In this document: positions 34,474-36,030 of the stretch, one piece after another
Layout of the letters: every line of letters begins with the position of its first letter
Numbering within the stretch: position 1 is the first letter of the stretch
NCBI RefSeq assembly: GCF_009914755.1
Contig: NC_060925.1
Strand: one strand, 5' to 3'
Length of the DNA: 64,000 nucleotides
From: the human T2T-CHM13v2.0 reference genome, Homo sapiens
Notes under the pieces: generated by a model
Seen by the model: only the letters and a program-made list of their open reading frames with translations
What the model was told of the DNA's origin: nothing
Database searches by the model: none
Program-made: the position numbers and the translations under genes

Positions 34474-35335
34474 TGGAGAAAACTGTTTACCATTTTAATG
34501 GTTTTGACCATGCTGTTCAGAACTTAAAAAAGGAGCCTTTTGGGAATGGCCTTGCAGTCCTGTGTGTTTATAGAAAACTAAGAAGGTATCTGAAAATTGA
34601 ACATGTTTGTCAAGAAGTGACCTTAGAAATCATGTCTGGGTAACAAGGTGTACTTCTGTCTCCTAAGAAGGTTTGCTTCATCAGCTCCTCTTTCTTTCGA
34701 TCAAATCAGATGTATTGAAATTCAAGTGCCAAAAGCCACTTCTAGTAAATGTAAGTACATCTCTCTCAAAGTAGCTGCTGATGGAATCTGAAGTGATTTG
34801 GTGGCAATCCACATGCTGCAGCACAGGTGCAAACAGCACAGCCTCAGAAGTGAGTGCTACACATCTCTGGGCTTTGAATTTCACATCAGAAAGGATGCAG
34901 GGTGCAGGGTCCTTTCTGGCTAGACGAAAAGGGCTTCCTCTGATCTTACATCTCGATCAATCTTATTTCAAGCACTGCTTGTTTTTGCTTCTTAGTCTGG
35001 CTTCTCTGTGTGTTTGATTGGTGACCTCTTTAGATCTGCAGACTGTAGGCAAATGCAGTGACATTTTGCTTAAAAGATTAAAGCATCTGGACCATGGCTC
35101 ACTGAGAAATTATCAGGGTGGGCAGAATGTGTCCATCTCAAAATGTTGATGCTTCCAGAAACTAAATGCATGCTAAGTAGCATGGACCATGCCTCATTCT
35201 ATCACCACCAACCACGCAGAACATATTATTAATAAAATAATATGATCAGTTCCCACTTCTCACCCCTACCCCTACCTCCCAGGATATGTCAAAGGTCATG
35301 CATCCATGAGAAAAGGCAAAGTAGAACGTAGACAC

Positions 35336-35492
35336 CAGGCAAAGGGACATGGTGCAGACACTGGTGATATAGCTCAGGCAAGAAGAAATAGTGCAAACAT
35401 CAGGAATACAGTTCAGGGAAGGAGCGATGGTGCAAACATCAGCAATACAGCTCAGGCAAGGAGACATGGTGCAAACATTGAGGATGTGGCTT
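35336..35492. repeat. Degenerate 39-bp minisatellite, 4 copies
   Basis: Units start at 35336, 35375, 35414, 35453; consensus about CAGGCAAGGAGACATGGTGCAAACATCAGGAATACAGCT. Confidence 0.9.
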
Positions 35493-35580
35493 CAGAAGTG
35501 AAGAACAACCAAAAGGGAAAGCAGATAGCTTAAGGGTAAAGGAGATAAAAAGGACAGATACCTACCCAGACCTGCGCTAT

Positions 35581-35676
35581 CTAGCTACCGGCCTGTGGAC
35601 TTATATTATCACCACTGGGCTCCCCACTGGGCTCACCAAATGGATCACTGTTGGATGAGGCCTGTGATCCATCAGG
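35581..35676 (-). CDS. DAB1: DAB1 exon 14 coding part ([31 protein letters not shown]); exon continues to 35566
   Basis: TAG acceptor 35677-35679; manual translation gives the known DAB1 C-terminus; TAG stop 35581-35583; GTAGGT donor at 35560-35565. Confidence 0.95.
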
Positions 35677-36030
35677 CTAGAACACAAGAAGATAATACTT
35701 TTTTTTTTCTCTCTTTTCAAGCATTGAAAATATAAGACACCTGGATATACTTTCATGCAGCACAATCAGTTATTGTAAAGGAGGGTGCAACGGCATTTAG
35801 AGGATGCTACACCACAAATGTGGACTTGTAGTAACAATTTAATAAAAAGGCAGTCCTTTTCAGCTGACTCATTTGAACACAAAAGAAAGCCCCTTTAGCA
35901 ACCCCTTGAGAACTTATGAGATTGAGCCAGCATTCTTTTCTATGTAGGCTTCCTCATGCATTATCCATTTCAGTTACAGAGGTCTTAATTTTAAGGAAAA
36001 ACACAAACAAATAACAAACTGGTCACTTAC

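What the first reader, a model, noticed from the sequence alone, without database searches (positions are those of the whole stretch)
35297..35960. Exon 14 has the architecture of a regulated cassette stop exon
Seen: exon 14 is 111 nt (multiple of 3, phase 0-0). Its acceptor has only a short pyrimidine tract preceded by a purine run (GAAAAGAGAGAAAAAAAAAAGTATTATCTTCTTGTGTTCTAG). Three TGCATG hexamers lie on the pre-mRNA strand: 35955-35960 and 35754-35759 in the 354-nt upstream intron, and 35297-35302 downstream. Established: UGCAUG is the RBFOX element, and upstream sites generally repress while downstream sites enhance. Inference: RBFOX proteins may choose between the ...PQAGS and ...YAQINRPKK termini.
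Basis: partly seen in the sequence, partly recalled or inferred. Interest (0 to 1): 0.7.

Follow-up and report, generated by a model that had tools for sequence, protein, structure and literature searches.

The report
Splice switch exposing ancient DAB1 tail

Summary
Exon 14 is a real cassette. A 111-nt mouse Dab1 exon of matching geometry falls from PSI about 0.95 (E14.5-P4) to 0.61-0.69 (P30 onward) in cortex, and a second dataset agrees (PMC5989265 supplement). That paper's network scores it Rbfox 0, Nova 1, Ptbp 0, Mbnl 'nd'. One of the three TGCATG sites is absent in marmot, so RBFOX control is unlikely. The stop lies 15 nt before the junction, so this is a C-terminus switch, not a poison exon. 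Skipping reads exon 15 as EPEPLYAQINRPKK. This tail ends 81 of 248 DAB1 records (all predicted models), from bichir, paddlefish and eel to birds and macaque. Fishes, birds and turtles also reach it through a donor inside exon 14 whose GT placentals have lost. The tail carries EPLYA, the motif through which p140Cap binds the Csk SH2 domain. Most likely, maturing brain makes a 538-aa DAB1 with an extra phosphotyrosine dock. Phosphorylation, partner and human skipping are untested, and horseshoe bats have lost the tyrosine. The event is catalogued; I found no paper on the tail.

The parts
35566..35676 (-). DAB1 exon 14: 111-nt cassette encoding the last 31 residues of the 555-aa form (contains a DPF tripeptide in amniotes)
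   Evidence: mouse event of matching geometry
35581..35583 (-). Stop codon of the inclusion isoform, 15 nt before the exon 14/15 junction; predicted to escape nonsense-mediated decay (50-55 nt rule, recalled)
22966..23010 (-). Start of exon 15, annotated as 3' UTR in the selected transcript; codes EPEPLYAQINRPKK plus stop when exon 14 is skipped
   Evidence: conserved in 81 of 248 DAB1 records
22993..22995 (-). Tyrosine codon of the EPLYA motif (Y530 of the 538-aa form); predicted phospho-acceptor
   Evidence: function inferred from p140Cap
35587..35595 (-). Relic of an internal in-frame donor (CAG|GCCGGT, after exon nt 84). The equivalent position is Val (GT) in fish, coelacanth, turtle and bilby records, and is spliced to exon 15 in fish, bird and turtle models
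35677..35718 (-). Exon 14 acceptor: 21-nt purine run (35698-35718), then a 21-nt pyrimidine tract and AG
35955..35960 (-). TGCATG 1 (71 nt after the exon 13 donor, 284 nt before exon 14); not conserved in marmot
35754..35759 (-). TGCATG 2 (83 nt before exon 14); conservation untested
35297..35302 (-). TGCATG 3 (264 nt after exon 14); buffalo reads Cys-Met here, so TGYATG is kept
35336..35478 (-). 39-nt tandem repeat, 3.7 copies, 77% matches, in intron 14; holds five YGCY and four YCAY words; candidate MBNL/NOVA element (inferred)
36031..36158 (-). DAB1 exon 13, the upstream partner of both junctions

Best explanation
DAB1 exon 14 is a cassette that mouse cortex skips increasingly after the first postnatal week, and skipping puts a 14-residue tail conserved across bony vertebrates on the protein, whose tyrosine is likely phosphorylated and would then dock an SH2 protein, most likely Csk. 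Shown from sequence and published tables: both reading frames; the fall in mouse inclusion from about 0.95 to 0.6-0.7; conservation of the tail in predicted isoforms; the Rbfox 0, Nova 1, Mbnl 'nd' annotation. Inferred: that the mouse event is the orthologue of exon 14 (from length and intron geometry); that human brain skips it too; that NOVA favours inclusion and the postnatal rise of MBNL activity drives skipping; that Src/Fyn or Abl phosphorylates Y530; and that bound Csk would damp Src-family activity at the Reelin receptor complex in mature brain. My odds by step: regulated cassette in mouse 0.95, in human 0.85; tail under protein-level selection 0.9; phosphotyrosine SH2 dock 0.6; Csk as partner 0.35.
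For: Mouse event CA-13131-367193-367510-367621-376953: 111 nt, introns 317 and 9,332 nt (human 354 and 12,555), 'coding', known AS, core member of late-switch module M1-. PSI for E14.5, E16.5, P0, P4, P7, P15, P30, adult, 21 months: 0.94, 0.96, 0.94, 0.96, 0.92, 0.77, 0.69, 0.67, 0.61; independent frontal cortex set 0.95, 0.97, 0.97, 0.85, 0.64, 0.65, 0.60, 0.62. Of 248 DAB1 records, 63 skip exon 14 and 18 reach the tail through the internal donor. At tail positions that my selection pattern did not fix: E/D at -3 in 77 of 81, P at -2 in 77, N at +4 in 71, R/K at +5 in 81, K at +8 in 81, and the protein ends there in 78. Two splice routes keep the same frame. p140Cap EPLYA/EGLYA tyrosines are needed for Csk SH2 binding and are Abl substrates (passages). 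EPIYA-type motifs of Pragmin, CagA and BepE bind Csk (passages). A +3 proline points EPLYA motifs to Crk/RasGAP (passages); DAB1 has Ile there.
Against: No phosphorylation or binding data for this tyrosine were found. No record named as human was listed, so human skipping rests on macaque models with an identical tail (P0003, P0125). All tail records are predicted gene models. Two horseshoe-bat species have a frameshifted tail without the tyrosine (P0080, P0244); elephant and sirenians change +2 and +4, and mouse has Lys at +2. L, Y and I are invariant partly because my pattern required them. Human motif support for NOVA is weak (7 YCAY in 300 nt downstream against a mean of 6.0; 36% of windows reach it) and for MBNL marginal (7 YGCY against 3.3; 6% of windows). 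DAB1 did not occur in the one supplement file of a human DM1 brain splicing atlas. Bulk-cortex PSI can shift with cell mix: adult motoneurons showed full inclusion against 0.88-0.90 in whole cord, at coverage 14 and FDR 0.09. A 2025 paper on Csk in cortex names Pag1 as the recruiter and, in the passages seen, reports no Dab1-Csk binding. EPIYA-like peptides bind many SH2 proteins promiscuously.
Confidence: 0.6

Rival explanations
1. RBFOX proteins bound at the three UGCAUG sites set exon 14 inclusion.
For: Three hexamers in 654 nt occur in 18 of 5000 local shuffles. Within 300 nt of exons 10, 11, 12 and 15 there are none; exon 13 shares the two in the short intron. Site 3 is compatible with conservation in buffalo. 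The network misses about a quarter of validated Rbfox targets, and its knockdown data were non-neural.
Against: Rbfox 0 for the mouse exon. Late timing fits Mbnl rather than Rbfox. Site 1 is CA rather than TG in marmot. Upstream and downstream sites predict opposite effects. A triple this tight appears somewhere in 70 of 200 pre-mRNA shuffles.
Confidence: 0.2
2. The tail is a trafficking signal, not an SH2 dock. YAQI fits the YxxΦ pattern read by AP-2 mu2, so the switch would trade exon 14's DPF (alpha-ear ligand) for another endocytic motif, or add a basic patch.
For: Y and I(+3) are kept and the basic end is kept. Exon 14 holds DPF in amniotes. Both motif definitions are recalled, not from a call.
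Against: The acidic -3, Pro -2 and Leu -1 are also kept, as kinase-substrate motifs require. DPF is absent from the fish and coelacanth records, so a DPF-for-YxxΦ trade cannot be ancestral.
Confidence: 0.12
3. The skip isoform is tolerated leakage or a by-product of changing cell composition, and the tail has little function in mammals.
For: Tyrosine lost in two horseshoe bats. Placentals lost the GT of the internal donor that also gave access to the tail. Motoneurons include the exon fully. Recalled, not checked: mice expressing only 555-aa cDNA or a C-terminally truncated Dab1 laminate largely normally.
Against: 30-40% skipping in adult mouse cortex in two datasets. The tail frame, motif and stop are kept in fishes, a caecilian, reptiles, birds, marsupials and most placental records seen.
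Confidence: 0.08

Closest known systems
p140Cap/SRCIN1 EPLYA and EGLYA motifs, and Pragmin EPIYA (mammalian Csk-SH2 ligands; PMC3561454, PMC3593179)
   Same: Identical EPLYA core in human DAB1, acidic -3 and aliphatic -1; sits in a likely disordered region (no Pfam domain or solved structure covers it) of an adaptor tied to Src-family kinases
   Different: A single motif at the extreme C-terminus, present only after a splice switch; phosphorylation and Csk binding not shown
DAB1 exon 7/8 and 7b/7c (9b/9c) splicing (Yano 2010, Gao 2012; seen only as cited in PMC5444801, PMC3737533, bioRxiv 244905)
   Same: Same gene; splicing adds or removes tyrosine/SH2 motifs; NOVA implicated
   Different: Those switches are embryonic and lie next to the PTB domain; this one is postnatal and changes the C-terminus
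Late-switch (M1) cassette exons of the mouse cortex programme (PMC5989265)
   Same: The mouse exon is a core M1- member, flagged for Nova and Mbnl
   Different: It is only a table row there; 'Dab1' does not occur in the main text
RBFOX-regulated cassette exons
   Same: UGCAUG words on both sides of an alternative exon
   Different: Scored as a non-target in mouse, one site not conserved, late timing
Poison (NMD) stop exons
   Same: Inclusion brings an in-frame stop
   Different: The stop is 15 nt from the last junction, and inclusion gives the main 555-aa protein

Membership tests
Regulated cassette exon | Both junctions expressed, with regulated ratio | tested here: met
   Mouse: 13/3 inclusion/skip tag and PSI 0.95 to 0.61; orthology inferred from geometry
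Regulated cassette exon | Skipping seen in human RNA | not testable with these tools
   No human RNA-seq tool; no record named as human; macaque models skip (P0003, P0125)
RBFOX target exon | UGCAUG within about 300 nt of the exon | tested here: met
   Sites at -284, -83, +264
RBFOX target exon | Conserved UGCAUG | tested here: inconclusive
   Site 1 not conserved in marmot, site 3 compatible in buffalo, site 2 untested; one species each, read from predicted read-through proteins
RBFOX target exon | CLIP plus perturbation support | tested here: not met
   Network call Rbfox 0 at FDR 0.01; sensitivity 0.74; neuronal knockout tables not obtained
NOVA/MBNL target exon | Predicted direct target in integrative network | tested here: met
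   Nova 1, Mbnl 'nd'; I read 1 as activation and 'nd' as target without direction, by analogy with the methods text
NOVA/MBNL target exon | Clustered YCAY or YGCY in human flanks | tested here: inconclusive
   YCAY 7 against mean 6.0; YGCY 7 downstream and 6 upstream against mean 3.3
Poison exon | Stop more than 50-55 nt upstream of a junction (rule recalled) | tested here: not met
   15 nt; mouse event typed 'coding'
EPIYA-like Csk-binding motif | E-P-[IL]-Y-A core with aliphatic +3 | tested here: met
   EPLYAQI; conserved
EPIYA-like Csk-binding motif | Tyrosine phosphorylated by Src-family or Abl kinase | not testable with these tools
   No phosphoproteome access; peptide text search gave unrelated hits
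EPIYA-like Csk-binding motif | Phospho-dependent binding to Csk SH2 | not testable with these tools
   No Csk sequence in session, and the complex tool lists no phosphotyrosine option; no job sent

The most novel reading that the evidence does not exclude
Adult brain makes about a third of its DAB1 as an overlooked 538-aa form whose ancient EPLYA tail recruits Csk once phosphorylated. A postnatal splice switch would thus give Reelin signalling a built-in brake on Fyn/Src, separating adult synaptic from embryonic migratory signalling. Placentals lost the donor that let other vertebrates carry exon 14 and the tail together, which makes the two ends mutually exclusive.
Probability: 0.3. Interest if true: 0.8.

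Novelty: new member of a known kind. Interest (0 to 1): 0.55.

Why it matters
The DAB1 isoform papers I could read list the 555-aa form and variants near the PTB domain, not this one. If 30-40% of adult cortical message encodes a different end with an extra conserved tyrosine motif, adult Reelin signalling (plasticity, Alzheimer-related work) has been studied with an incomplete adaptor. The tail gives a direct test: one junction, one peptide, one tyrosine. It would also add a splice-controlled member to the short list of mammalian EPIYA-like motifs. Variants in the first 45 nt of exon 15 are scored as 3' UTR under the selected transcript but would be coding in the skip isoform.

Tried and rejected
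Poison-exon reading: rejected, the stop is 15 nt from the junction. RNA structure hiding the acceptor or looping out the exon: not significant (z -1.70, 6 of 100 shuffles; z -1.20, 21 of 200). Dating the tail beyond bony vertebrates: 0 of 148 new cluster representatives carried the motif; these are 50% clusters, so this is no evidence of absence. Pfam and PDB cover the PTB region and, in PDB, one weak DAB2 fragment at 435-467; nothing covers the tail. One search's split into skip and short-exon classes was faulty and was redone; its pooled 81 tails stand. Cell-type network table (PMC12358039): four edges seen (Larp1, Celf6, Sf3b4, U2af1), but the file is cut, so missing Rbfox, Nova or Mbnl edges mean nothing. 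Supplements of PMC4930328 (2 files) and PMC8903011 (1 file) hold no Dab1 row. Not held: Gao 2012, Yano 2010, Bar 2003 and four ids I recalled for Rbfox, Nova and cell-type papers (the ids may be wrong). No structure or complex prediction was run. The region 35240-36060 matched once in the human assembly.

Full report
Observation. The window holds the 3' end of DAB1 on the minus strand. Exon 14 (35566-35676) is 111 nt, phase 0 at both ends, with a TAG at 35583-35581. Inclusion ends the protein ...PQAGS; joining exon 13 to exon 15 ends it EPEPLYAQINRPKK, 17 residues shorter (538 against 555 aa). The hexamer is not enriched in the window (44 against 49.9). Three in the flanks arise in 18 of 5000 local shuffles, but an equally tight triple appears somewhere in the pre-mRNA in 70 of 200 shuffles. 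The proximal pyrimidine tract equals those of exons 10 and 13 (14 of 19); only the purine block behind it is unusual. The stop is 15 nt from the junction, so by the recalled 50-55 nt rule this is a terminus switch, not a poison exon.

The cassette is real and catalogued in mouse. Supplements of Weyn-Vanhentenryck 2018 (PMC5989265; I saw table rows, file heads, passages and one methods section) list a Dab1 cassette of 111 nt with introns of 317 and 9,332 nt. I take it as the orthologue from this geometry. It is typed coding, known AS, and a core member of the late-switch module M1-. Cortex PSI is 0.94, 0.96, 0.94, 0.96, 0.92, 0.77, 0.69, 0.67, 0.61 from E14.5 to 21 months, and a second dataset gives 0.95, 0.97, 0.97, 0.85, 0.64, 0.65, 0.60, 0.62. 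The same 9,760-nt event appears in PMC6092797 (supplement row and passages): adult whole cord 0.90/0.88, motoneurons 1/1, coverage 14, FDR 0.09. Skipping therefore differs by region or cell type, and the bulk-cortex change could partly reflect cell mix.

Regulator. The same paper scores the exon Rbfox 0, Nova 1, Ptbp 0, Mbnl 'nd'. I read 'nd' as a target of undetermined direction and 1 as activation; the table does not define them in what I saw. The Rbfox network has sensitivity 0.74 and specificity 0.96, and its added knockdown data are from C2C12 and HeLa, so the zero is good but not final. The paper links Rbfox to early and Mbnl to late switches. Two predicted proteins read through the introns and let me test conservation indirectly. 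In marmot (P0029; E 1e-7, ungapped) the codon over site 1 is Gln, so that hexamer is absent. In buffalo (P0108, P0114; E 1e-10) site 3 reads Cys-Met as in human, compatible with conservation. No record covered site 2. Human support for the alternatives is itself thin: downstream YCAY is at background and YGCY is in the top 6% of windows, mostly within a 39-nt tandem repeat at 35336-35478. DAB1 was absent from the one supplement file of a human DM1 brain atlas (PMC8903011). I put RBFOX control at 0.2.

The tail. Three protein searches gave 248 DAB1 records: 153 end in full exon 14, 63 skip it, 18 use part of exon 14 and then the tail, 2 skip into a shifted frame, and 12 end otherwise. One search was built to enrich for the tail; the unbiased figure is 11 of 120. 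Skip models come from 55 named species by my count, including macaque (identical tail), mouse, rat, marsupials, chicken, turtles, lizards, a caecilian and a bichir; paddlefish, gar and eels carry the tail through the third route. Among the 81 tails, positions not fixed by my pattern are well kept: E/D -3 in 77, P -2 in 77, N +4 in 71, R/K +5 in 81, K +8 in 81, with the end at the same place in 78. All are predicted models, and no record named as human was listed. Against indispensability: two horseshoe bats have a frameshifted tail without the tyrosine, and elephant, sirenians and mouse carry substitutions at +2 or +4. No representative among 148 further unnamed clusters had the motif, so the tail is dated only to the bony-vertebrate ancestor.

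A third route and its loss. Fish, bird and turtle models splice from inside exon 14, right after SPQ, to exon 15 in frame. The next residue in full-exon records is Val (a GT codon) in all 17 non-placental records, and Ala (100), Asp (35) or Thr (1) in the rest, which are placental where named. Human reads CAG|GCCGGT there. Only one placental model (reindeer, P0176, an uncharacterized prediction) uses it. I infer that placentals lost or weakened this donor, leaving exon skipping as the main way to the tail.

Mechanism. The human tail contains EPLYA. In p140Cap the EPLYA and EGLYA tyrosines are needed for binding the Csk SH2 domain and are Abl substrates (PMC3561454, passages). Pragmin, CagA and BepE motifs also bind Csk, though such peptides can bind many SH2 proteins (PMC3593179, passages). 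EPLYA motifs with +3 proline go to Crk and RasGAP (PMC13753828, passages); DAB1 has isoleucine there. [quoted passage not shown] I therefore infer that the postnatal isoform carries an extra phosphotyrosine dock (0.6), with Csk the best single candidate (0.35), giving local negative feedback. None of this was tested. Rivals are a YxxΦ sorting signal (definition recalled) and tolerated leakage.

Novelty. The splice event is in catalogues and the isoform in predicted annotations, so neither is new as a record. Ten full-text searches (listings of up to 30 shown) showed no paper on this exon's product or its tyrosine. Term searches in two DAB1 isoform papers (PMC3232236, PMC3044655) found no mention of exon 14 or 15. 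Passages of bioRxiv 2024.09.20.614071, bioRxiv 244905, PMC5444801 and PMC3737533 concern other Dab1 exons or none in particular. Bar 2003, Gao 2012 and Yano 2010 were not held, bioRxiv supplements are closed, and the table in PMC12358039 is cut. Prior description, or Rbfox data on this exon, may sit in those.

Verdict. Observation confirmed; cassette reading right; RBFOX attribution not supported. The finding worth following is a postnatal switch to a conserved, unstudied tyrosine-motif tail. Interest 0.55; new member of a known kind.

Noticed in passing
window 35336-35478: 39-nt tandem repeat (3.7 copies) in intron 14, carrying YGCY and YCAY words; a buffalo model (P0108) leaves exon 14 at an internal site after DPF and reads into this region
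   Followed up: partly
window 35572 and 35589 (minus strand): Further donor-like sites near the end of exon 14 (CAG|GTCTGG 6 nt before the annotated donor; CCG|GTAGCT), each matching 5 of 8 consensus positions like the annotated one
   Followed up: no
window 35609-35638: 12-nt tandem duplication in exon 14 (GEPS twice); whale, tenrec, bird and turtle records have one copy
   Followed up: no
P0071, P0078, P0080, P0244: Hipposideros and Rhinolophus sinicus records change exon 14's DPF to DQF, and two Rhinolophus species lose the tail tyrosine by frameshift: both C-terminal motifs are altered in this bat lineage
   Followed up: no
window 22951-23010: Four CpG in the first 60 nt of exon 15 against about 0.33 per 45 nt in the rest of the exon; fits constraint on this stretch
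   Followed up: no
P0170, P0172, P0175, P0173: Some bird models insert a few extra residues (donor extension of exon 13, or an extra exon) before the tail while keeping its frame
   Followed up: no
window 4678-4689: Run of overlapping TGCATG on both strands (TGCA repeat), outside DAB1
   Followed up: no
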